Positions 18,928-55,429 of a stretch of DNA of 64,000 bases are shown in pieces (position 1 is the stretch's first letter; the number at the start of each line of letters is the position of its first letter). The stretch covers positions 32,001-96,000 of IMG/VR virus record IMGVR_UViG_3300037067_022448; one strand, given 5' to 3'. Position numbers and translations under genes: made by a program. The notes beneath the pieces are model-generated. The model saw nothing but the letters and a program-made list of their open reading frames with translations, was not told the DNA's origin and ran no database searches. The stretch comes from a virus (Duplodnaviria > Caudoviricetes).

Positions 18928-18946
18928 CTAGAAAATAAAAGGGACT

Positions 18947-24884: not shown

Positions 24885-24902
24885 AAAAATTATAGTTTTT
24901 AA

Positions 24903-31241: not shown

Positions 31242-31256
31242 TAAAAAAATCTCCTA

Positions 31257-34850: not shown

Positions 34851-34862
34851 TTGTTCTATCCT

Positions 34863-37148: not shown

Positions 37149-37355
37149 TTATCTTTTTGTTATAATTACTTTTTCATTTTCATCAACAACAATACGATCT
37201 TTATAAGCTTTATAAAGATCAGCTATTATTTCTCTTACTACTCCTGTAACTGTTTTATAATTTTCTTTCGAATATCCAATTAGAAAATCAAAGAGTTCTC
37301 TTTCTAATCTTATATTAATCTGTTTCCTTTCTATATTTTTTGATAATTTATCCAT
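37149..37355 (-). CDS. ribbon-helix-helix (CopG/Arc-like) DNA-binding protein
   Basis: KQINIRLERELFDFL...TVTGVVREII pattern; first gene after an AT-rich intergenic gap. Confidence 0.65.
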   Translation of the reverse strand: MDKLSKNIERKQINIRLERELFDFLIGYSKENYKTVTGVVREIIADLYKAYKDRIVVDENEKVIITKR

Positions 37356-37512: not shown

Positions 37513-40365
37513 CTATATACCCAAAAGAGATCGCATTTGATCTTTAGTAACAACCCCAGTTTGATTGCTAAACCCAGCATGTTTTAGATATACAGTTACT
37601 AAAATTTTAGTAGAAAGTGCGGGTATTAAATTTCCATGTAAATCATCGTACAAATCATCCATATATAACATTAATAAAGAAGTAGAAGGATCATAATAAA
37701 GTCCAACCAAATCCTTAATTGTCCCACCGATTGCTACGTCGTACTCATTAGTAATTGATTGCAAAGCTGCTGTTATTTTAACCCTATTTTTGCCAAAATC
37801 TAAAATTTGTACATATGAGCCGTCAGCATATTTCATAGCAGGAAATTTGGTAGAAGTTAATCCATCAGAAGATTCCGCAACAAAATTATCAAATAATAAT
37901 ATTCCTCTATATCCATCAAGAAAAGTTGGGTTTCCATAAGAATCCGTAACTGGGATATCAAGAGATAAGTGGTTAATTTCAAGATCTACAGAATAAAAAG
38001 TTTCATCTGGATTTAAAATAAATCCCTCTAACAATAAATTCCCAGGAATAAAGAAATTGTTTAATCCACTAGGATATTCTGTGGAAACTGGTTTTGTATA
38101 CGTAGTTGCGAGCAACCTTCTTAAGTCAATTGTTGCTAATAAATCTGGAATCCAGGTAGCAAAATAATCAATTTCCCACGGGATACAATTTACTATTGGT
38201 GTTATAAATGATGTACAACAAGAATCAGGTATATCCGCAACAGCCACCAAAGGATTTAACAAATTTTCAACTTGAAGCTCTGTTCTAGAAAAAGTTGAAC
38301 CAACAGGAAACGTTGTTACAGCTCTATTTATGTAATCTTCAATCAAATCTCTATCGTTAATGTCTACATCACCATCTCCATCTACATCTGCTCGCAAAAA
38401 TTCGAGAATATTAAGATAGCCATCTATTACTAATTGCTGAACATAACCATCACTCATACTTAATGGTACATAACTAGGCCACCTTGAAAGCCAGCCGTCA
38501 ACAATAGATAAATCTGTGAGATTTATTTCTCCATCACCGTTAACATCACCGTATGCATCATTAAAATGCGTTTGTTTTATAATTCTGAATTCACAATCGC
38601 TGCCACCACAGGATGTGCTTGGATATAATATTGAACCAACAAGATTGTTTTGTAAGATATCTGCATCTGGTAATAAAATATTAAAGATATTTCCATTTGC
38701 TAAGCCTGGCAAACAAGTCTCTCCAGAAATTGTAGAAGGATTTCCTCTTGGATTTTCATCTCTTACTGAGGCTAATAATACTGGGTCCGGAGTTGTTTCT
38801 ACTAAGACCGAGAGAGCAGCGGAATTTATTAAAGAGATATCCGGTACAGGCGTTACTCTTGAATAAATATCATCCCCAGTTCGCTGATCTTGTTCTGGAT
38901 CTGAAAATTCCTCGGAAGTTTCTAATAATACATAATTATATGCATCATATGTTACTGTATAAAATGGAAGTTCATCAAGTATATACGGAACTTCGGTGTT
39001 TGTATTATCCGGAGCTATTCTTGGAATTTGAACACCTATACCATTATCATAAGCAATACCATCTGATACTTTTATATAGTCTCCATAAATTGCAAACCAC
39101 ATATCACTTTCTGTAATATTTACCCATTGTGTACCATCATATATAACCATATAGCTATTATCTATTCTATCAGAAGCCTCTTCAAATAAAAGAGTCCCAT
39201 ATGTCGCTGCGCCCGCTCTACCAATTGTAAATACATAATATTTACCAACTTCTATATTAGAACGGATTGGATCTGAGACATTAGAGCCAGTAAAAACAAA
39301 ATCTATAATTTGTGGTACACCGTTTAAAACAACTCCCTGATATTTTAGGTCATCATCACTTAGCGCTATTTGACCAATAATTGTTGGATCGGGATCAAAA
39401 TCAATAGTGTTGTCGGGTGTTGGAGTAACCGGACATTCAACCTCTGTTTGAAGTTTGTGGAGTGTTAAGATTATATCTCCTCTCCATTCATAACCGTCCT
39501 CTCCAGGAAGATGAGATGAATTATATTTTACTGAAGCTAATATAGAAATTTTTTGTATATTAGCGCCACTAGCTAAGAATTTTTGACCTATACGTGTCGT
39601 AACATCATTAGAGGGAATTTCTCTTTGGGCCTCAGACGACATTCCTATATTAAGATCCGCCAAAGATTTTGTTGGACCAATCGCATTTTGTAGCATTTCC
39701 ACAACAGTGGTTGTGTATGAAGATGGAGAAAAATCGCTCCAGAACATACTTGGTTGTGCAACTTGAGCAGCGATTATTGGGTCTGCAGAAATTTCCATTG
39801 CCACGGCTTCTCTCACAACACAACGACCAATTAAGTTATAACCATCTATTTCAGCAGCATATTTTCTATTATTTGTAAGGCTGCCAGCAAAATTATTGAA
39901 TAGTATGGCTCTTATATTTTTATATCTGCCTCGTGTTATCTGAGTACCATTTGTATTAAAAATTAAATCATCATGAATAAGTGCGTCACCAAATTCATCA
40001 CCCATAATGCTAACCTTAATATGTGCGGCGCCATCCAATCTAGCGCCCGTTATTTGTATGGCAAGATTTACTCCATTTATAGTATCAGATACCTCAACCA
40101 GATCGGAGCCAACATAAACATTTTGACCATCAAAACTATATGAATCTAATAAAGATTGTTGTAACGAATTTAGACTATTTGTATCAAAAATAACAGGAGG
40201 ATATGGAAATTCATCCAATACACCGCTTCCAAAAAAGTTATTTTCGTTAGCCGCATCTATCCCAACATTTCTAGTTTGTTCGTCGGTAAGGTCAGTTTCT
40301 GTAATCTGCTCTCCATCAAAAAAATTACAATTTTTAAGATTTACAGGAAGTAATCTACTAGTCAT
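37513..40365 (-). CDS. putative virion structural protein with dockerin-like paired Ca-binding loops
   Basis: Acidic, beta-rich composition; N-terminal FFDGEQITETDLTDEQ; GDVNGDGEINLTDL and ADVDGDGDVDINDRDLI; follows baseplate genes. Confidence 0.65.
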   Translation of the reverse strand: MTSRLLPVNLKNCNFFDGEQITETDLTDEQTRNVGIDAANENNFFGSGVLDEFPYPPVIFDTNSLNSLQQSLLDSYSFDGQNVYVGSDLVEVSDTINGVNLAIQITGARLDGAAHIKVSIMGDEFGDALIHDDLIFNTNGTQITRGRYKNIRAILFNNFAGSLTNNRKYAAEIDGYNLIGRCVVREAVAMEISADPIIAAQVAQPSMFWSDFSPSSYTTTVVEMLQNAIGPTKSLADLNIGMSSEAQREIPSNDVTTRIGQKFLASGANIQKISILASVKYNSSHLPGEDGYEWRGDIILTLHKLQTEVECPVTPTPDNTIDFDPDPTIIGQIALSDDDLKYQGVVLNGVPQIIDFVFTGSNVSDPIRSNIEVGKYYVFTIGRAGAATYGTLLFEEASDRIDNSYMVIYDGTQWVNITESDMWFAIYGDYIKVSDGIAYDNGIGVQIPRIAPDNTNTEVPYILDELPFYTVTYDAYNYVLLETSEEFSDPEQDQRTGDDIYSRVTPVPDISLINSAALSVLVETTPDPVLLASVRDENPRGNPSTISGETCLPGLANGNIFNILLPDADILQNNLVGSILYPSTSCGGSDCEFRIIKQTHFNDAYGDVNGDGEINLTDLSIVDGWLSRWPSYVPLSMSDGYVQQLVIDGYLNILEFLRADVDGDGDVDINDRDLIEDYINRAVTTFPVGSTFSRTELQVENLLNPLVAVADIPDSCCTSFITPIVNCIPWEIDYFATWIPDLLATIDLRRLLATTYTKPVSTEYPSGLNNFFIPGNLLLEGFILNPDETFYSVDLEINHLSLDIPVTDSYGNPTFLDGYRGILLFDNFVAESSDGLTSTKFPAMKYADGSYVQILDFGKNRVKITAALQSITNEYDVAIGGTIKDLVGLYYDPSTSLLMLYMDDLYDDLHGNLIPALSTKILVTVYLKHAGFSNQTGVVTKDQMRSLLGI

Positions 40366-41123: not shown

Positions 41124-41134
41124 TAATCTCTCCT

Positions 41135-44100
41135 CTATTTTGTAAAGCTTACAAATGCTCTGGTGTGTGCTGGTTTTAGTTTCTCAATAAGACTTGTTAG
41201 CAATTCGTGCGCCAAATCAGTATCGATCAAACCAAAAGTATCTATCACTTCTACATAAAAATCAAATATACCAGTAGCCATATTTCTAACAGTAGCAAGA
41301 TACTCTACCTTTTCTTGCGGTGTATCAAAATCCAATAATAACCTCGTTAAAGCATCACTTACAACTGGCTGCGCTGTATTCACGTTGCTAGTATATAAAA
41401 TATCTTTTCCAATAAGTTGTCCTGGCCCACTACCACCCAAGTAAACTATTTGTCTCATTTCACTAGAAAATCTTAGATTATCCACTCTAGCCATGGCGGG
41501 GAATTGACCTGTAAAATCTGCGCCAATATTTATTATGTTAAACAAATCAGTTAAATTAATATCAGCTAAAATGTTTCTGGCTGCGATTGTTCCAGCCGTT
41601 GCCGAACCCCAAACTGTAGGGGATCCGTATAGATGGCCTGCACCATATTTTAGCCCGGTGCCGTATCTAATAATACCAGCCTCAGTACCATCAACCATTA
41701 AAACAAGGCGGTCCTGATTATCTATATTATTGAGACTCCAACCAACAAAAACTCTATGCCAAGAGTTTTTCTTCCAATATATTGGAGCCCGTATTTGATA
41801 ATCTACTCCAGAAGCTGTAACTAAGAGGTTGAACGCGCCGAATTCATCTTTATATAAACTAAATCTGTCTCCTTGGCTTGTAATTGGTACATATGTAACG
41901 ATTACTTCTTGTATGTTTTTTGGTAAAGTTTGTCCAAGCCTTATTATATATCCATCATTGGAAAGTGTTCCACCAGTAAAATAGTTTTTAGAACTTCCAG
42001 AAACAGTTACCGAATCGATTGTTCTAGCTCTTACAGAAAGCCTTATTAACAAGTTTGATATAATGCCACTCTGAGCTACAGTGGTCGCTCTTCCTACAGT
42101 TATTTGTTGAGCAGGTGTTAAATCCACAAAATATCTTTTTGTTGGGTCATTATATGTATCTAAAATCGGGCTCACCCAAAACTCAATAGTCCCACTATTA
42201 TTATTAAATATTGATTTATTATCAACTTTTAGGGGCTGTTTTTTATTAAAAATCGCTGATTGTTTGAAATTAGCATTAACACTGTTTTCACTTTGATTGT
42301 AAACTGGAGAATAGCTTGAATAAAAACTTGCGCTATTTGTTACATTATTATCAAAATGAAACAGCCCAAGCGTTTGTATTGTTGAGCTTAATTCTCTTAC
42401 AATTAAATTATCAGTTGTAATAGAACGACCTGAACTTGGTACAGGCGAACCTTTGCCAGTATCAACCGACATCTCATCAAGAATTCTCATTTCATCAATA
42501 ACCGCATTTGCTTGATGTTCAGCTCTAAAATCTGAACCCACAAAAAAAAGTTTGGGGGTTTCTGGCCAAGGAACAGTAAGATATGTTGGGAAATCAACTT
42601 CATACCAACAACTACCTAATAAGAAAGGTTGGCCACCCGATCTTGCAATTTCTAAGGTTATTAGACCGTTTGCAAATCCGCTATCTCCATATGAAGTTGC
42701 GAGCATTTTCCAACTTACGTTTGAATAAGATGCTGACCAACTTACAGAGCCACCACCATAAGTTTCTAACACTATAGTATTAGAATCTTTAACTTTTCCA
42801 CTTGGATCTAATAAGACATCCTGGATTTTGTAGACATTAGCAATAGCCGAAGGAGAAGTAATGTTTATTATTTTTCCAATATCTTCAACTCCAAATCTAG
42901 AATATCCGTCTATTAATTTATTATCTCCAGAAACAACTACACCATTTATTCCAGCCTGTTGTTGAACAGAAAGGAAAATTTGTGCATAGTTTCCATTATT
43001 TTCTTGCCAGTTTAGTGGATGTGTTTCACGAATTTCAATTGCTCCAGCGGGTTTAGTCGGATCCATCGGCGAAACTGATACAAAAATATCTGTAATTGTG
43101 GTAAAAAACTTTTCTGTCGTTTGAGTTCCTGGTGCTGTCCAAGTTAAAACCTCATTATCATAGCCATCCGCAGTTATTCCATCAATTATAACATTGTTAA
43201 GACCAGCCCAATCAATGTTGTTTCCATATAAAGTGGCGGAAATCTTTCTTCCAGTTACTCTATTTGATGGTTGACAAAAGTTAGCTATATTTACATATAT
43301 AACTGGAATCATGTGCCCACCAACAAGAGTGGCTATTAATGAAAAAACTGTTGGATCTATTAGCATTCGTTTTACAATAATTTTAGTAACATTTATTTTG
43401 CTAATATCTGTAGGCTGTGGCATAATTGTGTTTAAAACGTTTGTTTTTAAATTTGGCCACACAAATACATATTGTCTGCAGCGACTTTGCATTAGTCCGT
43501 AGGATTTTAATAATACACTATCATTTATAGCAATCCCATCATATACATTTACATATTCAACATATCCATCATTGGAAAACCCATATTGAGGGGTTAAAGA
43601 ACCTGGGGCATATAATTCGGTTTCTATGTTATAACCGTCTCCCGAAAAAACGCGGACGTGTTCTACATCATTGTCACTCAATGTTGTAAGTTGAAGTGGA
43701 TTCACTGAAAATCTTACATTACTAAGAGAAAGAACGGCATTATAGTCCGCGCCAAGTCCCGTTTGTAATGTTAAGTAGTTTTCTCCCAATGTTTTTACAA
43801 AAACATAAGGATACGTTTGTGTATTAGTCCCATCTTCTGTATCATCCAGAATTTCGAACTTATCACCTATTGAAACTCCAGATGTAGCAAAAGTAGAACC
43901 TACAGAAACAACCAGATTAGAACCAGCTGTTGTTTGAAGATCGAAACCACCAATAGTTGGAGCGATAGCGGTCATAGCAAGCACTTCTGTGCTTGAATCT
44001 AAAAACAATGCATCTTGTGGGGGTTCAAAATATCCACGGTATCTATAATTATTAGGAATTTCAGCGCCATCCACAAACAAATGAAGCTCATCTCGTTGCT

Positions 44101-47100
44101 CTATGGTTCCAATTTTCCAAGAGCAGGCTATATGATGTGTTTCAAGTTTTTGCCAATTATGCAAATTGGCACTTAACATTTTAATACGATTATTACCATC
44201 ATAAACTCTGAATCTTAAAAATCCTTTACCATCTTTATATAAAGACATTCGGCAATAGTTTTCACGCACTCCCGTATCGAAGAAATAGTGTGGATTATCT
44301 GAAGAAAAGTCAATACCATCAAAACCACCACGTATTCCTAATCCATAATTATCGTAGGCGTCATAATTATTATTAATCGCGTCATAAGCATCTAAAATAA
44401 AAGAAAATTTTATCTTTGTATCTGATGAGGTTATTTTATCTGTAAATTCATTTATATCATAATAACCATCGATAAAACTATAACCATCATATCCATCTGC
44501 TGTCGCTCCCCTAGAGACATCATAAAATTCTCCACCAGTTGATATTGTACCAGTAAAAGTTCTAAGTTCTATTCCAACTGGTGCTCTAACACGGCAACGC
44601 CACTTTTTGGCCCCAATATCATACCAAATAAAATATCCAGTTTCAGTATGGATTGTGCTTGGTTTCCCCAAGGTTTTCGTGTCAGTTATGCTTAAACTAA
44701 ATGGAATTTCTGTTGGATTTTCATTATTACTACCAATAAAGATTTTATCTGTTCTATAATATCCATCAAATTTTAAATCAAAAGTAAGCAGTGCGTCATT
44801 TTCTATACCAGACCAATTTGGTACTACAAATGCTTCCCAAGTTCCTTCATTAAATCTTACATTTGATGTTGCAGGAATAATTGCTGTTTGGCCATCATTA
44901 CTAAGAAGGAGGCCATCTCCAAATTTTCCAGGAGCATAAGTTGGTAATTCCTCATTAGAATTTGCTCCAAGTTTCATTTTTTCTAGGTGAATAAAATCTC
45001 TACCCAAAATCCATTCCAAAAATATCGTTTCGGTAATCTTTGGATCGATCTGAGTTAGAGCACTAACTAAATCTTTAATTGAAGGAATGGTCGGTCCTTT
45101 CGGAAAAGACTGTAAAGAACCCTCAACCATATGTCTGTAAGTTTCTCTGTCAAGTTCGTCAGGAATAGTTGAAAGCTCATCAATACCAGTCAAAATACCA
45201 AAATTATCGCGCAGAGAGTTTCTCAGCGCCCCATAACGATAACTTACATAGTAAGTTTCACCAGCTTCTAGGGTATCAGAAATACTCCAATCAAGTATAT
45301 TATCCCCATATTCGTAACTAATTAATATTTCATCTGTAGTGTAAGCATAATCAATAAAAACATCGCCCACGCTATAGTTAACTAATACAGCAGCCCCATC
45401 TCTTAGTTTAGCACGATATGTTGCTGTTACTGTACGGCCTGCTGCAAAACTAGCCCCAGTTGGAAGATAAATTCTATTGGTTGTGGCATCTATATATCCA
45501 TCGCTACCATATGAAAAATAGTTGATGCCGCTATTTATATCTATTGCGCTTATAGCTGATTTTAATTCAGCATATCCGCTTGTTACAAGAGTAGAAATTC
45601 TTTGAGCACTAAAATAAACTCTAGTACCAGAAGTCTCTATTAGCAAGCCATAACCATCGTTATTATCTGCTATAAGAACACCAGTAGCATCTAGTGTAGC
45701 TGTATCTAGTGTCGATGATGAAACTACTGCGCCTACACCAAAGTCTATAGGATTTGAACGAGTCTGTAAATCTGTAATCTGAAAAACATGATATAATCTA
45801 AAGATATCATAATTAACTTCAATAGTTCCGCTACTTACTTGGATTGGTTGTAATGTTGTATTTCCATACGAATCAGTTACACTAATCTCCCTTTCTCCAG
45901 CAATATCTAGATCCGTTACGGCAATAGTTGTATCAGAAATTTCACCAATAGAATAGGTTTTAGAAATCTGGCCAACTTTTGGACTCCTGAAAATGTCTGT
46001 AGCGCGGATTATATGTTTATTTCTGGTTTTAAATGTTGTTTTTTTATAAGTTGCATCTCCAATTTCTGTATCTGCTGTATCTAACTGAGCCAAATACACA
46101 ATACCCGTATCATAATCAACTACATAGTCACCAATTTGTTCAAGTCTAGATAAATTAGTAGCTAGAGTATCTGTTGGATCAAAGAAAAATTCGCGAATAA
46201 ATCTAGTTGTATCTGAAAACGTTAGAGAGCTGTTAAAACTAGCCCCTATAAAAGAGCCGGTCGCAGAACCAATCTCACTATTAAGTAATTCAATTTTAAA
46301 AGCAACAAAAGATTTGCCAGTAATACTAATATGATCTACAATAACCAATTGAGATTGGATAACATCCTCAAAATTGGCTGCTTCTCGACTAACCTCAACA
46401 ACATTTGGGGGTGTTGTTGCACTGAAATAAACCTCATTATTTGTAATTCTCGTTGGAGTATATAATTCTCCAGTCGTCTCATTAAAAATTCTAAAAACCT
46501 CATTTACTGGATATTTTTTTGTATAGAGACCTATATTCTCAATAAGACGATTTTCTACGCGTTCATTTATTTCTTCAATGTGAGAGTTAAAGTTAAAATC
46601 TGTACCATCTGCGTATGTATCCTCATATTCAAATTTTACTAAAGCTGGGCTATACCTTAAATCTCTATCTGGTATGGAAGCGACTTCGTTTAAATCAGTA
46701 TAAAAAATATAATCTAGCCCATTTTGATAAGTTTTAAGATATGAATAGTTTGCTACAGGTGGTATTACTGTAGTGCCATCGGTACCAGTTCCATCAACAC
46801 CAAAAACAAAAACCCTGCCGGTACTATAATCTACCATAAATTGCCCTGGCAAGCTTGGCAAGCTGTATTGGTTAAAAGATAGTTCTGAAGTAAAAGCCGG
46901 ATGTTTAACTGTTGGATCAAAATTTTGCTGAGGATTTAACCACACAATACCATTTTTTGTAGGTATATTTCCATTTTGATCTACTATTGGTGCATGGTTT
47001 AAGAAAAATGTTGTTGCAACAGCCGGCACTGATTCGCGAATTATATTTACAACCCTAGTAATATCCAAACTTTCTGGTTCAACAATTCTTCCTTCCTTTT

Positions 47101-48040
47101 TATAATAGTAAGTAATTATAAATGAATCTGTTCCTTGTGGAAATGGAAATGTGGGTCCAACAGCCGCATCATTCAATATAATCTGATTGTTATTTAAATC
47201 TAGTGCTGGATATGCATTATCTGGATCATATTTATAATTTTTAATACCGTAACGATATTGATTTATATCATAAGTGTATTGTACAAAATCTCTTACCAAA
47301 ATCACTGAATTTACAATAATAACAGAGCCCTTTGCTAAAGATACTGTTAAACCAATAAAACCATTACCAATGGTACTAGTATTAGAAACAATCTCTCCAG
47401 AAACTAATTCTTGCTGTAAACTAATAGGAGCCGCAGGAAAACTATCATAAGTTATAGTTTTTTCTTCAATATTACCAGTTATTGTAGAACCTACTCTTAA
47501 TATTTGAAAAGCGCCTTCATTAGCAAAACGATCAAATGGACCAGTGCCTCGTGTCATTTCTTCATCATCGATTTCTATTGAAACGTAACCAGCACTTTTA
47601 ACCTCTCCAACAATATTAGAAGACTTTTCTATTTCTTTTGCGCTTGCACTTACAGTATTAAAAATAACAGAACCAGAATCTTTATTATATATATCTGGTA
47701 TATTATTAAAAATATCATCTCGTACTGTGCTTTCTTCTATCTCTCCAACAAAAAAAACAACATTAGAGGTTCCATCTTCAATAAATTGTTCGCCACGAGC
47801 ACCAGCAAGATTAGTTAGTGTTAATTGATAATAGGCACCAGATATCATTGGCCTTACATTAATAATTAATATATTACTGGATACAGAAACAGAAGTTACA
47901 ATCAAATCCGGAATTCCACTATAAGCTCCTTTAATAGATATACTATCAGTAGAAACCGATGGATCTAGATTTGTTGTAAAATCAACTTCAAGTTGAGAAC
48001 TGCTTTTTATTTTAAGCCTAACAATTCTAATATTTGCCAT
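41135..48040 (-). CDS. giant baseplate wedge protein (P2 gpI/T4 gp7-like core) with LamG-like domains
   Basis: KGPTIPSIKDLV and C-terminal LKPAHT wedge motifs; GTWEAFV/GTIEFWV, HHIACSW, LFVDG, IDEMRI LamG-like segments; follows baseplate J. Confidence 0.7.
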   Translation of the reverse strand: MANIRIVRLKIKSSSQLEVDFTTNLDPSVSTDSISIKGAYSGIPDLIVTSVSVSSNILIINVRPMISGAYYQLTLTNLAGARGEQFIEDGTSNVVFFVGEIEESTVRDDIFNNIPDIYNKDSGSVIFNTVSASAKEIEKSSNIVGEVKSAGYVSIEIDDEEMTRGTGPFDRFANEGAFQILRVGSTITGNIEEKTITYDSFPAAPISLQQELVSGEIVSNTSTIGNGFIGLTVSLAKGSVIIVNSVILVRDFVQYTYDINQYRYGIKNYKYDPDNAYPALDLNNNQIILNDAAVGPTFPFPQGTDSFIITYYYKKEGRIVEPESLDITRVVNIIRESVPAVATTFFLNHAPIVDQNGNIPTKNGIVWLNPQQNFDPTVKHPAFTSELSFNQYSLPSLPGQFMVDYSTGRVFVFGVDGTGTDGTTVIPPVANYSYLKTYQNGLDYIFYTDLNEVASIPDRDLRYSPALVKFEYEDTYADGTDFNFNSHIEEINERVENRLIENIGLYTKKYPVNEVFRIFNETTGELYTPTRITNNEVYFSATTPPNVVEVSREAANFEDVIQSQLVIVDHISITGKSFVAFKIELLNSEIGSATGSFIGASFNSSLTFSDTTRFIREFFFDPTDTLATNLSRLEQIGDYVVDYDTGIVYLAQLDTADTEIGDATYKKTTFKTRNKHIIRATDIFRSPKVGQISKTYSIGEISDTTIAVTDLDIAGEREISVTDSYGNTTLQPIQVSSGTIEVNYDIFRLYHVFQITDLQTRSNPIDFGVGAVVSSSTLDTATLDATGVLIADNNDGYGLLIETSGTRVYFSAQRISTLVTSGYAELKSAISAIDINSGINYFSYGSDGYIDATTNRIYLPTGASFAAGRTVTATYRAKLRDGAAVLVNYSVGDVFIDYAYTTDEILISYEYGDNILDWSISDTLEAGETYYVSYRYGALRNSLRDNFGILTGIDELSTIPDELDRETYRHMVEGSLQSFPKGPTIPSIKDLVSALTQIDPKITETIFLEWILGRDFIHLEKMKLGANSNEELPTYAPGKFGDGLLLSNDGQTAIIPATSNVRFNEGTWEAFVVPNWSGIENDALLTFDLKFDGYYRTDKIFIGSNNENPTEIPFSLSITDTKTLGKPSTIHTETGYFIWYDIGAKKWRCRVRAPVGIELRTFTGTISTGGEFYDVSRGATADGYDGYSFIDGYYDINEFTDKITSSDTKIKFSFILDAYDAINNNYDAYDNYGLGIRGGFDGIDFSSDNPHYFFDTGVRENYCRMSLYKDGKGFLRFRVYDGNNRIKMLSANLHNWQKLETHHIACSWKIGTIEQRDELHLFVDGAEIPNNYRYRGYFEPPQDALFLDSSTEVLAMTAIAPTIGGFDLQTTAGSNLVVSVGSTFATSGVSIGDKFEILDDTEDGTNTQTYPYVFVKTLGENYLTLQTGLGADYNAVLSLSNVRFSVNPLQLTTLSDNDVEHVRVFSGDGYNIETELYAPGSLTPQYGFSNDGYVEYVNVYDGIAINDSVLLKSYGLMQSRCRQYVFVWPNLKTNVLNTIMPQPTDISKINVTKIIVKRMLIDPTVFSLIATLVGGHMIPVIYVNIANFCQPSNRVTGRKISATLYGNNIDWAGLNNVIIDGITADGYDNEVLTWTAPGTQTTEKFFTTITDIFVSVSPMDPTKPAGAIEIRETHPLNWQENNGNYAQIFLSVQQQAGINGVVVSGDNKLIDGYSRFGVEDIGKIINITSPSAIANVYKIQDVLLDPSGKVKDSNTIVLETYGGGSVSWSASYSNVSWKMLATSYGDSGFANGLITLEIARSGGQPFLLGSCWYEVDFPTYLTVPWPETPKLFFVGSDFRAEHQANAVIDEMRILDEMSVDTGKGSPVPSSGRSITTDNLIVRELSSTIQTLGLFHFDNNVTNSASFYSSYSPVYNQSENSVNANFKQSAIFNKKQPLKVDNKSIFNNNSGTIEFWVSPILDTYNDPTKRYFVDLTPAQQITVGRATTVAQSGIISNLLIRLSVRARTIDSVTVSGSSKNYFTGGTLSNDGYIIRLGQTLPKNIQEVIVTYVPITSQGDRFSLYKDEFGAFNLLVTASGVDYQIRAPIYWKKNSWHRVFVGWSLNNIDNQDRLVLMVDGTEAGIIRYGTGLKYGAGHLYGSPTVWGSATAGTIAARNILADINLTDLFNIINIGADFTGQFPAMARVDNLRFSSEMRQIVYLGGSGPGQLIGKDILYTSNVNTAQPVVSDALTRLLLDFDTPQEKVEYLATVRNMATGIFDFYVEVIDTFGLIDTDLAHELLTSLIEKLKPAHTRAFVSFTK

Positions 48041-48041
48041 A

Positions 48042-51000
48042 TTAACGTTCCTCTGTACTTACAGTTACTATTCCAGGGGCTATATATTCATTCTTCTGGG
48101 CAACTATACTAAGTTTTGTACCAAGAACTCCAGTTTTATTAAATCTAGTGATTCTCACTCTATCTACTCCTTGGACATTATACACGCTATCAATAATGTC
48201 TGAGGAATCAATTGTTGTTCCTAATGCGGTCGCAGTAAGTGCCGAAGTTATATTATCAGAAACATCCTGTTTTACCGTACTTTTCTGATCCTTATAAGCA
48301 TTAGATACAATAATTACTGCAGAAACATCCACTTCAATCTTACTGGCTGCCTTTTCCAGAACATCTGCAGTTATTGGTCTCTTTTGCTCTACCGCAGTAG
48401 TTGCGTCTACAATTAATTTATTATATTCATAGTTTATTGTAATTCTTTCATTATCTTTAGGAGCTTTATAAATATAACTAGTTAAATATGTTTCGTTTAT
48501 TGTTGGCTGATTTAAAGTGTCAATTTGGACTGACCCAATAATGGTGCCACCAGAATCTTGTAAACCAGAAATTCTATTTATTGATGATATATAACCAAAT
48601 CGTTTATTAGTTATCGCCTTACCACTTCTCGAGAAATATAAATCTTCATAATCATTTGGTTTAGCATAATAGAAAGTTACTAATAGTTTTGTTCCTGTTA
48701 CTATAGTTGAACTATTATTATATGTTGTCGAGGCTAATCTCACTCCAGTCATCGAGATATTTGAATTTTCAATTGAGTGTGCTATGTCCCACCTTGTATC
48801 TCTGATTGCATAATTTGTTAAATCGTACTCAAAATCTGTTGATGAGATAGCTCCGCTAATATTTGTGGTCACTTTATCAATTTTAGTAACCCTTACAACA
48901 TAAATGTTTGGAATACTAGATGTACCCTCTGCTGATTTTATTAGACCATACAAATCTATTGTATTATCTGCGGTAGCAGTAAGAATTCCTGTTACTTTAT
49001 TTATTGTAGTTCCTACAATTCTAATAGAACCCCCTGTTGTAGGAATGTTTGAGAGAGTAACAACTAAATTAGAGGGCGATCTTCTTTGGTTAGCGGTAAT
49101 AACTGTTCCAGAAAAACTATTAAGTGCCGGCTGATATCCATCAACATCCACAAATGAATTAAAGCCATCTCCGGAAATTGGAAAATTAGCTATCTGAGTT
49201 GAAGTTGGAATAACGTTTGAAATATTTGCTACATAATTAACTCTTACAAATGTACCAGAAGTAACAATTGTATTTGGAAGAATATAAATATCGTTATTTA
49301 CAAAAAGCCCACTATCGTATCCATCAACTTCAGCAATATTATTTAGGTTATAAATAACCGATACTATGTCGCCCGCTCTTGCTAATGTATCAGTTGGTAA
49401 TGTAATAACCCTATATGAGAATTTTCCATCATTTTCTTTGGTGTTATATACTTCAGGCTCACCAGTTAAGGAGGCATCTTTTATACTATATACATTAGAA
49501 ACAGAATCTGTTGTAGTAATTGTTTTATCAATAGCAACAACTAATGTTTCCGATTTAAAAATATTAACAGAAAGTATGCGACTTATTGGATATAAAGTTT
49601 TAACCATTAAGTTACCATAAGAATCCAAAATTGCTTGAGATATTTCATCTCTTATATAGTTTGAATAGCCCCACTCTACAGAATCTTGAGTTGAATCCAA
49701 AGGATCTCTTGGATTTAAATTATCAAAATCTACATATTTATCATATGGAAAAACCCAAGTATAATCTACTTGTAGAATATCACTTACTGTTGGTAAAGTA
49801 CTTCCACTAATCTTGATCCTGCCTGTTGTATTAAGATTACCAGTCCCATCTGGGTTTTGGTCTAATATGATATATCTTTCTCCAGTGGTTAAATTAAAAA
49901 TGCGGCTTACGGTTCTAACTGGCTTGTGTTTGGTGGTTATGTATGACCTAGAAGAATTTTGAACAGACGAGTTTTCATTAGTAATTTGAATATCTTGTGT
50001 AATCCCAGTTAATTCTGATATTTCAGTATAGGCTAAAGAATCAACTGAATTAAATTGACCTTTAGTACTAGATTCATCAGATAGATCAATATAGCTAGAT
50101 GTCCATGCAAACTTGTCTAATCCAAAAGAACTTCCACCAGCACTGCCAGTATCTTTAATTAGTTTATAATTTCCTTTATATTGTCCGGTTGTTGTGTCTA
50201 AATATTGTTCTACAAAATTAGTTCCAGATAGGCTTCCACTTACTGATGTAATTTTAGAAACTGGTTGATTTGGAATTGCAGCGCCTTCTGACAAAGTTGC
50301 AACCCTACGAGAATTAAGTGTTAAACTAGTACTTGCTGTAAGATTGCTTTGTCCTAGAACAAAATTATTGGCAGGGTCTGATGCATCTCCTGTTCCACTT
50401 TGATCGTAATATACAAAACTATCTGTCGCGGGTTGTAAATTTTCACCCATAACATAGATATCTATTCTACCACCAGTTCCAGGTTTTGAGACTATGGTGT
50501 TTCCATAACTATCAACTGTTGTAACCGTTCCATCTCTAGTCATTAGTGGGTCGCCAGGTTCAATTACAAGAGCGTCTATTGCATCTGCAAGATTCAAAAT
50601 AATACTTCTATAACATAAGGCCGTGCCAATATTTGCACTTGAAAATGTAGCTAGAATTCGTGCTCTAAAAGCAACATCATCTTCTAAGTTTGTACCACCA
50701 GTAAAAGGAGAAACATTTGTAACATTACTTACTCCAGAAATATTTTGGCTTACTATTGAGTATGACGAAATGTTTCCAACACTACCAGTGCTCTGAGTTT
50801 GTACAGACACCTCAATAGCAAAAGTATCAGTGATGCCAGCAGTATTAAGTTGTTGTCTTAATCTAGTTGCCGTGGCTCTCAAAGAGTTTGCTTGTGATGT
50901 CGTTACTGTTGTACTTGATACTGTTAAAAATGGTATTCCATTTCTTGTTCTAACAATAGAATTTTGTGGAATTGGAACATCTGAGCTGAGTGATTTAAAA

Positions 51001-51278
51001 GTAAGAACCACATTACCATAAGCTTTGGTTCCGGTTTGTCTAGAAATACCATAATTTGAGCCATAATTAGTAAGATCTTGGCCCGTCAAATTTGCCACAG
51101 ATTGCATAGCCGCAACATTTTTAATTGCATCGTATATGATTGAAACTTGTTGAGCTTGAGCGTCAACAAATAAATCGCGAGCCACTGATGCAGGTTTTGT
51201 ATCCAAGCTTGGTTGAGTCAATCGTAGATAGTTTAATATATCTAGAACTATATTATTAAAGCTTTTATAAGTTACCAT
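48042..51278 (-). CDS. baseplate J / gp6-like wedge protein with large insertion
   Basis: SVARDL, TGQDL..YG.NYGISR..GTKAYG.V, G..GNI, VTN..PFTGG.N.EDD..FRARI; C-terminal LGTTIDSSDII..VYNVQGVD. Confidence 0.85.
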   Translation of the reverse strand: MVTYKSFNNIVLDILNYLRLTQPSLDTKPASVARDLFVDAQAQQVSIIYDAIKNVAAMQSVANLTGQDLTNYGSNYGISRQTGTKAYGNVVLTFKSLSSDVPIPQNSIVRTRNGIPFLTVSSTTVTTSQANSLRATATRLRQQLNTAGITDTFAIEVSVQTQSTGSVGNISSYSIVSQNISGVSNVTNVSPFTGGTNLEDDVAFRARILATFSSANIGTALCYRSIILNLADAIDALVIEPGDPLMTRDGTVTTVDSYGNTIVSKPGTGGRIDIYVMGENLQPATDSFVYYDQSGTGDASDPANNFVLGQSNLTASTSLTLNSRRVATLSEGAAIPNQPVSKITSVSGSLSGTNFVEQYLDTTTGQYKGNYKLIKDTGSAGGSSFGLDKFAWTSSYIDLSDESSTKGQFNSVDSLAYTEISELTGITQDIQITNENSSVQNSSRSYITTKHKPVRTVSRIFNLTTGERYIILDQNPDGTGNLNTTGRIKISGSTLPTVSDILQVDYTWVFPYDKYVDFDNLNPRDPLDSTQDSVEWGYSNYIRDEISQAILDSYGNLMVKTLYPISRILSVNIFKSETLVVAIDKTITTTDSVSNVYSIKDASLTGEPEVYNTKENDGKFSYRVITLPTDTLARAGDIVSVIYNLNNIAEVDGYDSGLFVNNDIYILPNTIVTSGTFVRVNYVANISNVIPTSTQIANFPISGDGFNSFVDVDGYQPALNSFSGTVITANQRRSPSNLVVTLSNIPTTGGSIRIVGTTINKVTGILTATADNTIDLYGLIKSAEGTSSIPNIYVVRVTKIDKVTTNISGAISSTDFEYDLTNYAIRDTRWDIAHSIENSNISMTGVRLASTTYNNSSTIVTGTKLLVTFYYAKPNDYEDLYFSRSGKAITNKRFGYISSINRISGLQDSGGTIIGSVQIDTLNQPTINETYLTSYIYKAPKDNERITINYEYNKLIVDATTAVEQKRPITADVLEKAASKIEVDVSAVIIVSNAYKDQKSTVKQDVSDNITSALTATALGTTIDSSDIIDSVYNVQGVDRVRITRFNKTGVLGTKLSIVAQKNEYIAPGIVTVSTEER

Positions 51279-51292
51279 TTTTAGAAAAACTC

Positions 51293-51721: not shown

Positions 51722-51782
51722 TATAATTCTTCTCCCAATGCTGTAATTTCTTGACCAGCTTTAACTTCTTCTTGCTCTGTTG

Positions 51783-53441
51783 TTATGATGTTTTTACTTG
51801 ATCATTATAATAATTTAAAGACTTTGTTACAGATCTTACATTTTTTGCATCCTTTGCCCTCGCCGACCGGTCTGAATTTGTTTTGATATAAGTATTTAGT
51901 AAATCAAAAATCCAAGTTACTGTTTTTTCTAAACTATCAACAGCTCCTTTGGCAGTATCTAAACCATCTATTAAGTTTAAAGACTCAAGAGCCGCAGCAA
52001 GCACCTTATCTTTTTTCATTTCATCTATTGTGTCTCTATCTAACAAAGAAACCAACTCTTGTTTACTTATTGTAAATAATGCTATTATAATAGAAACAAT
52101 ATCTATTACTGAAAGCCCTGTAAATTCCCCGGTCATCATCTCTAATTCTAATCTAAGAGCTTCCATTCTTTGATTTGTTTTTTGAATTTGGTCCTCAATT
52201 TTTTTAATTTTATCTTGAGTATCATCAATATCAGGAGTTAATAATTTTATAAATGCTATTACAAGATTCATAAAAACAGTATTTTTGGTCATATTTTTAG
52301 CGTTTGTATCACTACCAAGAATTGTATCATCACTTGGCAAAAGCATTTGTATTGCTTGGTCTTTTGCTAGTTTTTTTTGTAAAGCTTGTATTTGTTGAGC
52401 AAATTCTGATTCTGGATTTAATATAATTTCAGCCGAGGTAGTTCTTTTTCCAAAGGGACTATTTTGAGCTGACGTTGTTCTTACAGATATTGTACATTTT
52501 ATTTTTTGATATAATAGCTCTTGGTTTTTAAGTAACTCGTTCCATTTTTTTGCGAGTTGCGGCAAAGATGAAAGAAGACGCCTCAAAATAAGATTCTCTA
52601 ACATTCCGCCGGAATCTACCGATGAAAGAACGCTATTAGTTTCAGCAGATATTGATGCAAACGCTTTATCTCCTATATCTTTTTGTATAGCTTTTTTAAT
52701 ATCATCTGCTTTAGCTTTTCCGGCAGAATTCTCTGCATTAGCTGCCGTTACTAGTCGTATTCTTATTACAGTCTCAATAAAAGATTTTGGTAATTTTGTC
52801 TGGCTATCAGGCATCTGATCTTTAGTATATTGTAAAAATGGCCGAGCAGTTTCATTTTTTACTGGAGTTACTTTTATATAAGATGTAACCAAAGGAAATA
52901 TTTTTTTAAAAACTTTCCTACAACCAGCTGGCGCTTTTTTTGAATCCTTATAGTTTAAAAGAGCGCCATTTGGTCCCACAATACCTTCAACATTTGGAGC
53001 CAGAGGAATGGCATATCTCATAGCTTGCGTCATTGCGTCGTCCATTTCCTGAGTTCCGACTTTATTCTCTCTATCTAACAAAGTAGATTCTCTTTTTGCT
53101 AAAGAAAAAGAAAGATCATCATCTTTTTCGGTATTCTGTAAAATGTATTGAGAAAATTTATTACCATAATAACCTGGTGTTAAATTTCTTTCACCTGATA
53201 AATTGCCACTTGGTTTCGATTTATTATTTTTGTTGCGCTTCTCAATACTTACAAACATTGGTAGCCCAATTAATCTAAAAAACGCATTAACTCTTGATTC
53301 AATTGGTTTATGTTCTTTTTGGCTAGTATCATTATCAGCTTGGTCAAACTCATACGAACGAATTTGATCTACTTCGCCAAGAATTTTCTTTGCGAAATCA
53401 ATGATGTCAAAATCGGCCACGCTCTGAAAATCATTAGCCAT
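51783..53441 (-). CDS. hypothetical helical/coiled-coil protein in the baseplate module
   Basis: ORF track; context. Confidence 0.65.
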   Translation of the reverse strand: MANDFQSVADFDIIDFAKKILGEVDQIRSYEFDQADNDTSQKEHKPIESRVNAFFRLIGLPMFVSIEKRNKNNKSKPSGNLSGERNLTPGYYGNKFSQYILQNTEKDDDLSFSLAKRESTLLDRENKVGTQEMDDAMTQAMRYAIPLAPNVEGIVGPNGALLNYKDSKKAPAGCRKVFKKIFPLVTSYIKVTPVKNETARPFLQYTKDQMPDSQTKLPKSFIETVIRIRLVTAANAENSAGKAKADDIKKAIQKDIGDKAFASISAETNSVLSSVDSGGMLENLILRRLLSSLPQLAKKWNELLKNQELLYQKIKCTISVRTTSAQNSPFGKRTTSAEIILNPESEFAQQIQALQKKLAKDQAIQMLLPSDDTILGSDTNAKNMTKNTVFMNLVIAFIKLLTPDIDDTQDKIKKIEDQIQKTNQRMEALRLELEMMTGEFTGLSVIDIVSIIIALFTISKQELVSLLDRDTIDEMKKDKVLAAALESLNLIDGLDTAKGAVDSLEKTVTWIFDLLNTYIKTNSDRSARAKDAKNVRSVTKSLNYYNDQVKTS

Positions 53442-55429
53442 TATGATCTCCCAACCCCAAGAGGCTCGTTAGAACCTTCAGTACGAACTTGATAATCGCT
53501 TGGCTCAACAAATTGAACATAAACATATCTTGGTTGCAGACTATAACCATCGAAATATGCTACGTCATAACCATCTATGGTTGCTCCAATCTGAGAAGTT
53601 ATTGGTACGAAACTATTTAAAGTAGCGCCAAAAATTCCAGTAGAAATTCCATATTCATCAAGAATTTCCATAGTAGAAGAAAGTTCTCCAGAAGAAGCAG
53701 ATATTTCTACATCAATAGTTCCGGGTGGCAATCCTAAAGTAAGTACTGCGCCATTTTTATCTAAAGGTATTACATTTATAGTCGCATCATGTCCAATCAT
53801 TTGAATTGGGGGCTCAGTAGCTAGAATACTATTTTCTAAATCTAAAACCTTATCAATTAGTTTCTTCAAATAATCAACCATATCATTTTTAAAATTATTG
53901 AGTGAGTCGGCAACACAAGATTGAAGACCAACTATATTTGTTGCCATAGAACTATAATTATCAAGGACCCAATCCGAAGTAATATTTAACGGAGCGACAG
54001 CTGTTAAGCATCCATTTAAATCAGAAATAAGCTTATCCAAATCAGGAAGTTCTGGTAGAACTGTATCTTTAAGTTGTGGGAATCTATTTTCTACGCCAGC
54101 CACAGTTGCTCTAACTGCAGGATGGCAACCAATTCCTATCAAATTATGTCTTATTAATTCTTCATGATTAATATCTAATAAATACTTTTTATTAGAGCCA
54201 AGTTGTGGAGCCATACACCATTTGATATCGCTAAAATTTGTACCATAAGACCAAGTAAGGGTTCCGGTTTTCTCTAATAATGAGCTATAACCATCATAGA
54301 TGCCTTTAATAAGCCAAGTTCCATTATTATTAGCCGCCTCGGTTGCTCCTCTTCTATCCTGCAAAACAATATACCTTGTATTTTCATAAGTAGAAACAAA
54401 TGCATCCCTACTTGTACAAAATCTAGCACATGTCGTTGGCAATGGTGCACCATACATGTCAACATTTGATAAATAACCATCAGTAATGTAACTTGATTCA
54501 GTTAGAAGTAGAATTGCTGAACCACCAGAATCAACACCCGACATAGCAAAATCTGTATTTTCAACAGTAAGAACATATGGCAGTTTATCTTTATCTGTAA
54601 CACTAACATAATTAAAACCGGCAGGGAAAAAATCTCTGATTGATTTAAGATCATTTACAAGGGATGGCGCACTAAAATAAATTAATGGAATTTCATAAGT
54701 ATAATATACATTAAGAATTCCATCTGAACCACTAATTGTTGTTGAATTCTTTATAATTGGTGGGCAATTTTCATCATTACAACAAGCATCACTTCCTCTA
54801 CAAGGAATTCCTATACCTAAATTAAGAAGGGTCTTAATCATCTCCCAAAGAGCACCCAAAGTGGCTAATATGCCCAATATATTTTGTAATTCTTTAAATA
54901 AAGATGTAATTTTAAAAGCAATGGCTAATTGTGCGTCCTGATTATTACTAGCAAAAGCATTAATTAACATTTGTATATTCTTTATTATATCATTGATGAG
55001 TGGAACTATTACCGTAAGTATGTATTCAATTATAGCTAATATTATTTTAATCAGACATATAATAATTGCAGGAATTGTTAACTGTGGAAATATCGAAATA
55101 AAATCTGGTAAACAAGTACCAAATAGTTTAATAATAGCGGCAATCACGGAAAACGGATTTACTAGTGCACAAAGGACTTCAATAATACAACTAATCATCC
55201 TTATTACAACAGTAATCATTCCATATGCAGACGTAAAACCTGAAAGTAAGCGAGCTTGCTCCGAAATAACATCGCCTAAATTTTTAGTTGCACTCGGTAA
55301 TGGAGATGGCTTGATTATAGCACCAGCTGGACACGTACATTTTAATTTATTAACGTATTCCGAATAAGTAGTCGGAATCATACCCTTCTGGGGAAACAAG
55401 TTAATTGGTTTTACTTGGGGAACACTCAT
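53441..55429 (-). CDS. hypothetical tail-module protein with long hydrophobic N-terminal segment and possible C-terminal Ig-like domain
   Basis: ORF track; ~80-residue Ile/Leu/Val/Cys-rich stretch; context downstream of spike gene. Confidence 0.65.
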   Translation of the reverse strand: MSVPQVKPINLFPQKGMIPTTYSEYVNKLKCTCPAGAIIKPSPLPSATKNLGDVISEQARLLSGFTSAYGMITVVIRMISCIIEVLCALVNPFSVIAAIIKLFGTCLPDFISIFPQLTIPAIIICLIKIILAIIEYILTVIVPLINDIIKNIQMLINAFASNNQDAQLAIAFKITSLFKELQNILGILATLGALWEMIKTLLNLGIGIPCRGSDACCNDENCPPIIKNSTTISGSDGILNVYYTYEIPLIYFSAPSLVNDLKSIRDFFPAGFNYVSVTDKDKLPYVLTVENTDFAMSGVDSGGSAILLLTESSYITDGYLSNVDMYGAPLPTTCARFCTSRDAFVSTYENTRYIVLQDRRGATEAANNNGTWLIKGIYDGYSSLLEKTGTLTWSYGTNFSDIKWCMAPQLGSNKKYLLDINHEELIRHNLIGIGCHPAVRATVAGVENRFPQLKDTVLPELPDLDKLISDLNGCLTAVAPLNITSDWVLDNYSSMATNIVGLQSCVADSLNNFKNDMVDYLKKLIDKVLDLENSILATEPPIQMIGHDATINVIPLDKNGAVLTLGLPPGTIDVEISASSGELSSTMEILDEYGISTGIFGATLNSFVPITSQIGATIDGYDVAYFDGYSLQPRYVYVQFVEPSDYQVRTEGSNEPLGVGRS

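What the first reader, a model, noticed from the sequence alone, without database searches (positions are those of the whole stretch)
37513..55429. Recurrent DGY (and DSYGN) motif dispersed through four baseplate-module proteins: candidate sequon for a phage-encoded virion modification system
Seen: by manual count DGY occurs 22 times in four proteins totalling ~4990 aa: 5x in 37513..40365, 11x in 41135..48040 (including ADGYDGYSFIDGYYD at ~44462-44497, followed by DAYDAINNNYDAYDNYG), 2x in 48042..51278 and 4x in 53441..55429. DSYGN occurs 4 more times in three of them. I found none in the hub, spike, gp25, tube-like or 552-aa proteins (~3200 aa). With rough frequencies (D~7%, G~7.5%, Y~5%) only about 1-2 would be expected. 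Codons vary (GAT/GAC; GGT/GGC/GGA) and flanks are unrelated, so this is protein-level selection and not a DNA repeat. Established: Tyr O-glycosylation occurs in some Firmicutes S-layer proteins, and some phages glycosylate their virions. Inference: D-[G/S/A]-Y is a surface-turn tag recognised by a phage enzyme. The adjacent downstream glycosyltransferase/fucose/methyltransferase island is the obvious candidate. Alternatives are a docking site for a decoration protein or a metal-binding turn.
Basis: partly seen in the sequence, partly recalled or inferred. Interest (0 to 1): 0.88.

Follow-up and report, generated by a model that had tools for sequence, protein, structure and literature searches.

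The report
DGY tag on huge-phage baseplate proteins
Four outer baseplate and fibre proteins of this uncultured huge phage, and their homologues in more than a hundred related phage contigs, carry the tripeptide Asp-Gly-Tyr about 15 times more often than chance, in surface loops and next to a conserved phage sugar-transferase gene, so it looks like an undescribed surface tag, possibly a sugar-attachment site on tyrosine, though no modification has been shown.

Summary
DGY occurs 5, 11, 2 and 4 times in the four proteins: 22 observed against 1.28 expected (P about 6e-20). It is by far the most enriched tripeptide, with ordinary codon usage. The other tail-module proteins have none.

The signal is specific to the ordered motif: NGY, EGY, DGF, DGW and the permutations are not enriched. 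It holds across three protein families (207 vs 9.5, 294 vs 20.7, 507 vs 43.7). The motif occupies 84-87 different alignment columns in one family, so it was gained repeatedly.

In AlphaFold models, 13 of 14 sites lie in loops or turns of differing length. Homologous positions are mostly polar and indel-prone. Relatives with homologous proteins but without DGY exist, so the motif is not a fold requirement.

Only the N-terminal GT4 half of the 757-aa transferase tracks the clade (67 of 68 loci with long flanks). The fucose and methyltransferase genes do not. Two DGY-poor relatives keep this GT4, and one DGY-rich relative lacks it nearby.

Best reading: a sequon-like surface tag, most plausibly Tyr glycosylation started by that GT4 (about 0.4). 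DSYGN is a separate hairpin motif. The scan has reported the same motif in at least 16 other genomes. No paper was found.

The parts
37513..40365 (-). p950, a fibre-like distal baseplate protein. It has a conserved N-terminal ~620 aa, a variable C-terminus and a dockerin-like Ca-binding module at residues 605-680. It carries 5 DGY (residues 174, 290, 639, 648, 817) and 1 DSYGN (808).
   Evidence: Its family of 149 representatives has 294 DGY vs 20.7 expected.
41135..48040 (-). p2301, a giant baseplate protein made of arrays of beta-sandwich domains. It carries 11 DGY, all between residues 795 and 2029 and none in the first 790 aa, plus 1 DSYGN (723).
   Evidence: Its family of 76 has 507 DGY vs 43.7 expected, in 84-87 distinct columns. 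Model.
44462..44497 (-). Cluster of three DGY within 12 residues (p2301 residues 1182-1193), followed by DAY repeats. It lies in a long low-confidence loop that is deleted in DGY-poor relatives.
   Evidence: model residues 479-502, pLDDT 47-58.
48042..51278 (-). p1078, a Baseplate_J (T4 gp6-like) wedge protein with a long C-terminal extension. It carries 2 DGY (652, 713; both beyond the Baseplate_J domain, 66-288) and 2 DSYGN (256, inside that domain; 552).
53441..55429 (-). p662. The N-terminal part is long hydrophobic helices and the C-terminal part is beta domains ending in an Ig-like domain. It carries 4 DGY (317, 379, 619, 627). Site 317 is DGY in 66 of 67 homologues.
35940..37136 (-). 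GT4N, the N-terminal GT4 half (residues 1-399) of the 757-aa double glycosyltransferase. It has an E-x7-E motif. It is the only island gene conserved next to the fibre gene across the clade, and the candidate reader of DGY.
34863..35939 (-). GT4C, the second GT4 half of the same protein. It is fused only in close relatives, and a homologue was found in 20 of 68 loci.
23224..34850 (-). Variable part of the sugar island: a 1197-aa multi-GT protein, two methyltransferases, two GT2 genes, a GDP-L-fucose synthase-like gene, a GDP-mannose 4,6-dehydratase with an intein, and an SDR. GC is 0.23-0.28.
37149..37355 (-). 68-aa ORF between the fibre gene and the GT4 gene. No terminator-like site was found in the gap.

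Best explanation
DGY is a short linear motif that selection keeps at high density in solvent-exposed loops of the outward-facing tail proteins of one clade of huge phages. The context-free, ordered, three-residue nature of the signal fits a sequon: a tag read by an enzyme on the folded protein in the cytoplasm. The most likely reader is the soluble retaining GT4 glycosyltransferase encoded directly after the fibre gene (GT4N, 35940-37136). It would attach a first sugar to the Tyr hydroxyl, with Asp at -2 as the recognition determinant. The lineage-specific remainder of the island (here a second GT4, a multi-GT protein, GT2s, GDP-fucose synthesis and methyltransferases) would then extend and decorate the glycan. 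Shown: the enrichment, its specificity, its repeated gain, its loop location, its dispensability for the fold, and the GT4N synteny.
For: Enrichment is 17-fold, with P about 6e-20, and DGY is the top tripeptide. The signal is order- and residue-specific: permutations, NGY, EGY, DGF and DGW are near background. It is family-wide: 207 vs 9.5, 294 vs 20.7 and 507 vs 43.7. Gain is repeated: 84 columns in the p2301 family, rank 1 of 2930 tripeptides (ratio 145, median 27, runner-up 85). Between 62-66% identical orthologues, sites turn over while the counts stay at 15-22. Flanks are uninformative and there is no repeat domain. 13 of 14 modelled sites lie in loops or turns of 2 to more than 20 residues. 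The Tyr columns are replaced by polar residues 61-66% of the time and have a gap fraction of 28-30% against 9-11% for other Tyr columns. The motif is not needed for the fold: L091 has 1 DGY in about 4600 aa of homologous baseplate proteins, the conserved DGY columns hold other residues there, and the DGY-rich loop is deleted. Bacillus phage G baseplate proteins are not enriched. Inner tail proteins have none. GT4N follows the fibre gene in 89 of 93 loci with at least 2.5 kb downstream and in 67 of 68 with about 8 kb. It keeps the E-x7-E motif and its invariant Arg-Lys. Relatives without DGY lack GT4N at the syntenic place.
Against: No chemical evidence exists. GT4N is almost universal in the clade, so the synteny has little discriminating power. 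L090 (5 DGY vs 0.92 expected) and L092 (4 vs 0.92) are DGY-poor yet keep a GT4N that retains every column invariant in A5. L039 is DGY-rich but has no GT4N within 7 kb, only a Glyco_trans_1_3 gene. The off examples rest on short contigs (L091, L093) or on a gene list without DNA (P0137). No GT4 enzyme is known to me to glycosylate tyrosine. Asp-Gly is a common beta-turn, and one site (p662 residue 317) is nearly invariant and lies inside a strand, so some sites may be structural. GT4N could serve another substrate.
Confidence: 0.4

Rival explanations
1. DGY is read directly rather than modified. It would be a docking site for a decoration or assembly protein, or a multivalent weak contact (Asp hydrogen bonds plus Tyr stacking, or a metal site) for host surface polysaccharide.
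For: The motif is confined to outward-facing tail proteins and exposed loops. Its density is maintained with turnover. The host proteins are arrays of beta-sandwich domains that resemble carbohydrate-binding modules of glycosidases. DGY-poor relatives that keep GT4N fit a reader other than GT4N.
Against: Three residues in loops of different length and geometry cannot form one defined binding pocket. No candidate partner gene was identified. The strict need for Tyr over Phe or Trp and for Asp over Asn or Glu is more typical of enzyme recognition.
Confidence: 0.2
2. DGY is a purely structural preference of this clade: an Asp-Gly turn followed by a Tyr that starts the next strand and stabilises beta-hairpins in long-lived extracellular proteins. 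Nothing reads it.
For: Most modelled sites sit directly at strand ends, and two or three have classic two-residue D-G turns (p662 619-620, p2301 1092-1093). DG is twofold enriched overall and NG is depleted. One site is nearly invariant.
Against: Loop lengths range from 2 to more than 20 residues, and three sites lie in a low-confidence loop. Beta-branched or other aromatic residues after DG are not similarly favoured. Relatives with homologous proteins have other residues at the same columns. Phage G baseplate proteins show no enrichment. The motif appears in 84 different columns, many of them polar and indel-prone.
Confidence: 0.15
3. DGY is a sequon for a different modification of Tyr or Asp (for example hydroxylation, cross-linking, phosphorylation or nucleotidylation, or isoaspartate formation at Asp-Gly) by an enzyme encoded elsewhere in the phage or host. 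The GT4 neighbour would then be coincidental.
For: The sequon-like properties are the same as above. The imperfect link with GT4N leaves room for another enzyme. Only 111 kb of a probably much larger genome is available.
Against: No candidate enzyme was seen in the 111-kb contig. GT4N is the only gene found consistently beside the module.
Confidence: 0.15

Closest known systems
Virion glycosylation of mycobacteriophages by phage-encoded glycosyltransferases (Freeman et al. 2023, Cell Host Microbe; known here only as described in PMC12619734, since the paper itself is not held)
   Same: Phage-encoded soluble glycosyltransferase genes sit beside virion structural genes, and the proposed substrates are the phage's own virion proteins in the cytoplasm.
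   Different: There the glycans are on the C-termini of capsid and tail-tube subunits, and modification was demonstrated. Here the candidate sites are a dispersed Asp-Gly-Tyr tripeptide in baseplate and fibre loops, the acceptor would be Tyr, and nothing has been demonstrated.
[quoted passage not shown]
   Same: Both involve a minimal three-residue sequon that starts with Asp and marks many unrelated proteins, and both involve fucose-containing glycans.
   Different: The acceptor there is Ser or Thr next to Asp, not Tyr at +2. That system works outside the cytoplasm from a lipid-linked glycan, and no flippase or oligosaccharyltransferase is present in this island.
Tyrosine O-glycosylation of S-layer proteins in Paenibacillus and Thermoanaerobacter (review PMC2943079)
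   Same: Tyr would be the acceptor on a surface-exposed protein lattice.
   Different: Those systems use en bloc transfer by a membrane O-oligosaccharyltransferase from undecaprenyl carriers, and no DGY sequon is known to me. Here only soluble GT-A and GT-B enzymes are encoded.
Chlorovirus PBCV-1 capsid glycosylation
   Same: Virus-encoded cytoplasmic glycosyltransferases, a virus-encoded GDP-mannose dehydratase and GDP-fucose synthase, methylated sugars and non-canonical sequons.
   Different: That is a eukaryotic virus with N-linked glycans on Asn of the capsid protein.
Bacterial N-glycosylation sequon D/E-X-N-X-S/T of PglB (my own knowledge)
   Same: An acidic residue at -2 from the acceptor, in exposed loops.
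   Different: The acceptor is Asn, and a periplasmic oligosaccharyltransferase does the transfer.

Membership tests
Phage-encoded virion glycosylation (mycobacteriophage type) | Phage glycosyltransferase genes adjacent to virion structural genes | tested here: met
   A GT4 gene starts 377 bp after the fibre gene. A GT4N homologue follows the fibre gene in 89 of 93 related loci.
Phage-encoded virion glycosylation (mycobacteriophage type) | Glycan demonstrated on virion proteins | not testable with these tools
   There is no cultured relative: p2301, p950 and p662 have no tblastn match in GenBank phages.
Phage-encoded virion glycosylation (mycobacteriophage type) | Sites at the C-termini of capsid and tail-tube subunits | tested here: not met
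   DGY sites are internal loops of baseplate and fibre proteins, and the tube-like protein has none.
Bacteroidota general O-glycosylation | Motif D-(S/T)-(A/I/L/V/M/T) with a Ser/Thr acceptor | tested here: not met
   The enriched motif is D-G-Y. DS and DA dipeptides are not enriched.
Bacteroidota general O-glycosylation / S-layer Tyr glycosylation | Lipid-linked assembly with a flippase and a membrane oligosaccharyltransferase | tested here: not met
   Pfam on all island proteins found only soluble GT4 and GT2 enzymes, methyltransferases and sugar-nucleotide enzymes. Only the 111-kb contig was searched.
Two-residue type I' Asp-Gly beta-hairpin turn | D-G as the only loop residues between two paired strands | tested here: inconclusive
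   This holds for p662 619-620 and p2301 1092-1093. The other sites lie in loops of 4, 5 or more than 20 residues, or within a strand. Models only; no coordinates were available for solvent accessibility.
GT4 retaining GT-B glycosyltransferases (for GT4N) | Glyco_transf_4 plus Glycos_transf_1 domains and an E-x7-E motif | tested here: met
   Pfam matches both halves of the 757-aa protein. PHROG 2170 matches residues 138-397. E-x7-E can be read in the sequence. R206, K207 and E292 are invariant in 29 homologues.
Ig-like beta-sandwich hairpin motif D-x-x-G-N (for DSYGN) | The motif forms the loop between two strands of a beta-sandwich domain | tested here: met
   p2301 residues 723-727 are exactly the 5-residue loop between strands at 718-722 and 728-732. 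The equivalent D-A-Y-G-N column lies in the Ig-like C-terminal domain of the p662 family. Pfam itself gave no hit on the window's own segments.

The most novel reading that the evidence does not exclude
Asp-Gly-Tyr is the sequon of an undescribed, cytoplasmic, phage-encoded protein tyrosine O-glycosylation system. It would be started by the fibre-adjacent GT4 family and extended by lineage-specific enzymes, and it would coat the distal tail of a large clade of environmental huge phages with glycans.
Probability: 0.35. Interest if true: 0.9.

Novelty: new variant of a known kind. Interest (0 to 1): 0.74.

Why it matters
A three-residue motif enriched 10- to 20-fold, gained again and again in the surface loops of outer tail proteins across more than a hundred huge-phage contigs, points to something that reads it. 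It would also give a general way in which huge phages dress their host-recognition apparatus, which bears on host range, on shielding from defences or grazers, and on engineering site-specific glycoconjugates. Even if no modification exists, the motif is a simple sequence marker for outward-facing virion proteins in an uncultured clade. The hypothesis can be tested directly by co-expressing two genes from this window.

Tried and rejected
DNA-level repeat or codon artefact: rejected. There are six codon combinations, in line with general usage, and the pattern occurs only on the coding strand.

Hidden repeat domain: rejected. There are no significant internal or cross matches, and the flanks are uninformative.

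General property of baseplate proteins: rejected. Bacillus phage G has 2 DGY in about 8300 aa.

Pfam assignment of the segments around DSYGN and the p662 C-terminus: no hit even at E of 5 or less.

Searches for cultured relatives of p2301, p950 and p662 in GenBank phages: none. The baseplate J part alone finds phage G and mycobacteriophages at 25-30% identity.

Reverse test starting from GT4N: the alignment was too diverse for a pattern scan. The protein search found 292 homologues, the listed ones of about 360-400 aa and many on long contigs, but gives no context.

Close relatives of the DGY-free L091 fibre in IMG/VR: none. The DGY-free P0137 contig could not be read as DNA.

Solvent accessibility could not be computed, because model coordinates are not exposed; secondary structure and alignment proxies were used instead.

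Literature: no paper holds both 'DGY motif' and 'phage'. Freeman et al. 2023 is not held.
Full report
**What the window is.** All genes lie on the minus strand. The window is bases 32001-96000 of a 111-kb contig. It carries huge-phage genes:
- a tubulin homologue, a PrkA/DUF444/SpoVR trio, a UvsW-like helicase and DnaB, and several inteins;
- a contractile-tail baseplate module with a Baseplate_J protein (p1078) and a gp25-like sheath initiator.

The closest cultured baseplate J is that of Bacillus phage G, at 28% identity over a quarter of the protein. p2301, p950 and p662 have no match at all in GenBank phages.

**The observation.** The counts are exact: 5, 11, 2 and 4 DGY in p950 (37513-40365), p2301 (41135-48040), p1078 (48042-51278) and p662 (53441-55429).
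- Composition predicts 1.28 and a first-order Markov model predicts 4.1. DGY is the most enriched of all tripeptides (P about 6e-20), and the runner-up has P about 6e-5.
- 22 of 28 Gly-Tyr dipeptides are preceded by Asp. DGF and DGW occur once each and NGY never.
- Codons vary as in the rest of the genes.
- The six other tail-module proteins (3551 aa) have none, and the remaining 12,341 aa of the window have 2 against 1.76 expected.
- Elsewhere on the contig, a 417-aa protein with Ig-like or propeller features has 4, and the tail sheath has 2.

**Is it a repeat or a fold feature?** No.
- The four proteins share no significant internal or mutual repeats. The masked flanks of the sites are barely more alike than random windows, and the small excess comes from overlapping sites.
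- Over 514 distinct sites from the three families, no flanking position carries more than 0.26 bit.

**Relatives.**
- Two IMG/VR contigs at 62-65% identity show the same four orthologues enriched, with 15 and 17 DGY against about 1.3 expected.
- In three-way alignments, about 9 of the 22 sites are conserved in all three. The others alternate with DAY, DGF, DGV, DGT or unrelated residues, and new DGY appear at other columns in the relatives.
- Wider families behave alike. The p662 family (77 sequences) has 207 vs 9.5 expected. The p950 family (149 representatives) has 294 vs 20.7. The p2301 family (76 sequences down to 30% identity) has 507 vs 43.7, and every member has 2-16.
- To remove the effect of shared ancestry I counted alignment columns. 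DGY occupies 84 columns in the p2301 family. Normalised, that is 145, against a median of 27, a 95th percentile of 46 and a runner-up of 85 among 2930 tripeptides. The five permutations, NGY, DGF and TGY are at or below the median, and DAY is mildly raised.
- Bacillus phage G baseplate proteins are not enriched.

**Where the sites sit.**
- The AlphaFold model of p662 (77-sequence alignment, pLDDT 82) puts 379-381, 619-621 and 627-629 in hairpin turns or loops. The nearly invariant 317-319 lies within a strand. The C-terminal domain is Ig-like, resembling invasin, intimin and filamin.
- The model of p2301 residues 700-1800 (pLDDT 77.5) puts all ten of its sites in loops or turns next to strands. 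One is a two-residue turn, several are 4- or 5-residue loops, and the triple cluster lies in a loop of more than 20 residues with low confidence.
- The domains are beta-sandwich arrays with only weak structural neighbours.
- In the alignments, the Tyr columns of DGY are replaced by polar residues in 61-66% of other sequences and have a gap fraction of 28-30%, against 9-11% for other Tyr columns.
- I could not compute accessibility, because coordinates are not exposed.

**The motif is dispensable for the fold.**
- Some relatives have no enrichment. L091 has 1 DGY in about 4600 aa of baseplate J, p2301 and fibre homologues.
- The P0148/P0150/P0151/P0163 fibre clade has none in up to 1958 aa, and so do P0137 and P0128.
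- In an alignment with these, the family's conserved DGY columns hold unrelated residues and the DGY-rich loop 1182-1240 is deleted.

**The sugar genes.** Pfam and NCBIfam confirm the island at 23224-37136:
- a 757-aa protein made of two GT4 halves;
- a 1197-aa multi-GT protein, two methyltransferases and two GT2 genes;
- a GDP-fucose synthase-like gene, and a GDP-mannose 4,6-dehydratase with an intein.

No flippase or oligosaccharyltransferase is present. GC is 0.23-0.28, against about 0.33 around the island.

In 110 related loci fetched with two fibre alignments:
- A homologue of the N-terminal GT4 half (GT4N) is found in 89 of the 93 loci with at least 2.5 kb downstream, at a median of 189 bp after the fibre stop.
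- It is found in 67 of the 68 loci with about 8 kb downstream. The other island genes are found in only 1-20 of those 68.
- GT4N is usually a stand-alone protein of about 370 aa and is fused to a second GT4 only in the window's near relatives.
- It keeps an E-x7-E motif and an invariant Arg-Lys pair. It has 292 homologues, many of them on long phage-sized contigs.

**Co-occurrence test.** The result is suggestive but not clean.
- Without GT4N at the syntenic place: L091 (only 2 kb of flank); L093 (the fibre is followed directly by the 335-aa gene and the epimerase that lie after GT4N in L090); and the P0137 contig, where the order is baseplate J, a 3100-aa protein, fibre, a 104-aa gene, then UvsW, so the whole island and the tubulin gene are missing.
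- Against a strict link: L090 (5 DGY vs 0.92 expected) and L092 (4 vs 0.92) are DGY-poor but keep a GT4N with all invariant residues. DGY-rich L039 has no GT4N within 7 kb but has another GT-B gene. L014 and L020 have extra DGY-bearing fibre genes inserted after the fibre, which may simply push GT4N out of range.

**DSYGN.** It occurs four times against 0.085 expected for D.YGN. In the p2301 model it is exactly the five-residue loop of a hairpin. A D-A-Y-G-N column lies in the Ig-like domain of the p662 family. I read it as the familiar D-x-x-G-N hairpin of bacterial Ig-like domains (from memory; Pfam gave no hit on these segments). It is not part of the DGY phenomenon.

**Interpretation.** An ordered, context-free tripeptide is strictly specific for Asp and Tyr, is gained repeatedly in exposed and variable loops of outward-facing virion proteins, and can be lost without losing the fold. 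It behaves like a sequon or docking tag rather than a structural element.
- The only conserved neighbour is a soluble retaining GT4, which makes Tyr glycosylation started by GT4N the leading mechanism (about 0.4).
- The window's fucose and methyltransferase genes would be a lineage-specific elaboration.
- The rivals are direct ligand binding or docking (0.2), a purely structural turn preference (0.15), and another modification by an unseen enzyme (0.15).

**What is already known.**
- No paper holds both 'DGY motif' and 'phage'.
- The nearest described systems are mycobacteriophage virion glycosylation (as cited in PMC12619734), the Bacteroidota D-(S/T)-(A/I/L/V/M/T) sequon (PMC8550257) and S-layer tyrosine glycosylation (PMC2943079).
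- Earlier notes of this scan report the same motif in at least 16 other genomes of this phage group. My tests here were run independently and agree on the enrichment, the repeated gain and the outer-versus-inner contrast. They give a more mixed picture of the glycosyltransferase co-occurrence than two of those notes state.

Noticed in passing
window 40362-41123 (-): A free-standing LAGLIDADG_2 homing endonuclease gene lies between the p2301 and p950 genes. In relatives L001 and L002 the two genes abut, with no such gene between them.
   Followed up: partly
window 38326-38553 (-), p950 residues 605-680: A dockerin type I module (26.9 bits, cut-off 22.9) sits inside a phage fibre protein. Faint dockerin hits recur in distant homologues (L092, L094). 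Two DGY lie between its two calcium-binding loops.
   Followed up: no
window 53441-55429 (-), p662 residues 50-205: Four long, very hydrophobic helices with conserved Cys residues (C81, C87, C106 invariant) and a weak tape-measure PHROG hit precede the beta domains. This is unusual for a protein encoded among baseplate genes.
   Followed up: no
window 24903-27056, 10634-14944, 18947-21505 and 1303-6099 (-): Inteins interrupt GDP-mannose 4,6-dehydratase, PrkA and the UvsW-like helicase. The 1598-aa protein at 1303-6099 looks like a ribonucleotide reductase with an intein, judged from the sequence only. In relative L002 a GT1 gene downstream of the fibre also carries an intein.
   Followed up: no
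window 23224-34850: The sugar island is markedly AT-richer (GC 0.23-0.28) than the flanking tail and replication genes (0.31-0.35). Most of its genes are missing from relatives, which suggests recent acquisition.
   Followed up: partly
G000 contig 26946-28199 (L004:10946-12199, minus strand): A 417-aa protein outside the window has 4 DGY (expected 0.13). It has no Pfam or PHROG match and shows weak Ig-like and beta-propeller resemblance. Its 418-aa neighbour has a weak, sub-threshold Big_7 hit. These may be further outer virion proteins.
   Followed up: partly
L121:7751-8215 (+): A 154-aa ORF with 3 DGY lies after the p2301 homologue in a relative whose large baseplate proteins are otherwise DGY-poor (2 in 4420 aa).
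   Followed up: no
L039:13072-14313 and 18656-19789 (+): In one DGY-rich relative the fibre gene is followed by an FAD-dependent oxidoreductase, a Glyco_trans_1_3 gene and a nucleoside 2-deoxyribosyltransferase fusion, instead of GT4N.
   Followed up: no
L008 and L089: DGY-free homologues of the fibre's N-terminal domain (about 1957 aa) lie next to VapE-like primase and replication genes rather than a baseplate module. The domain has therefore moved into another phage type.
   Followed up: no
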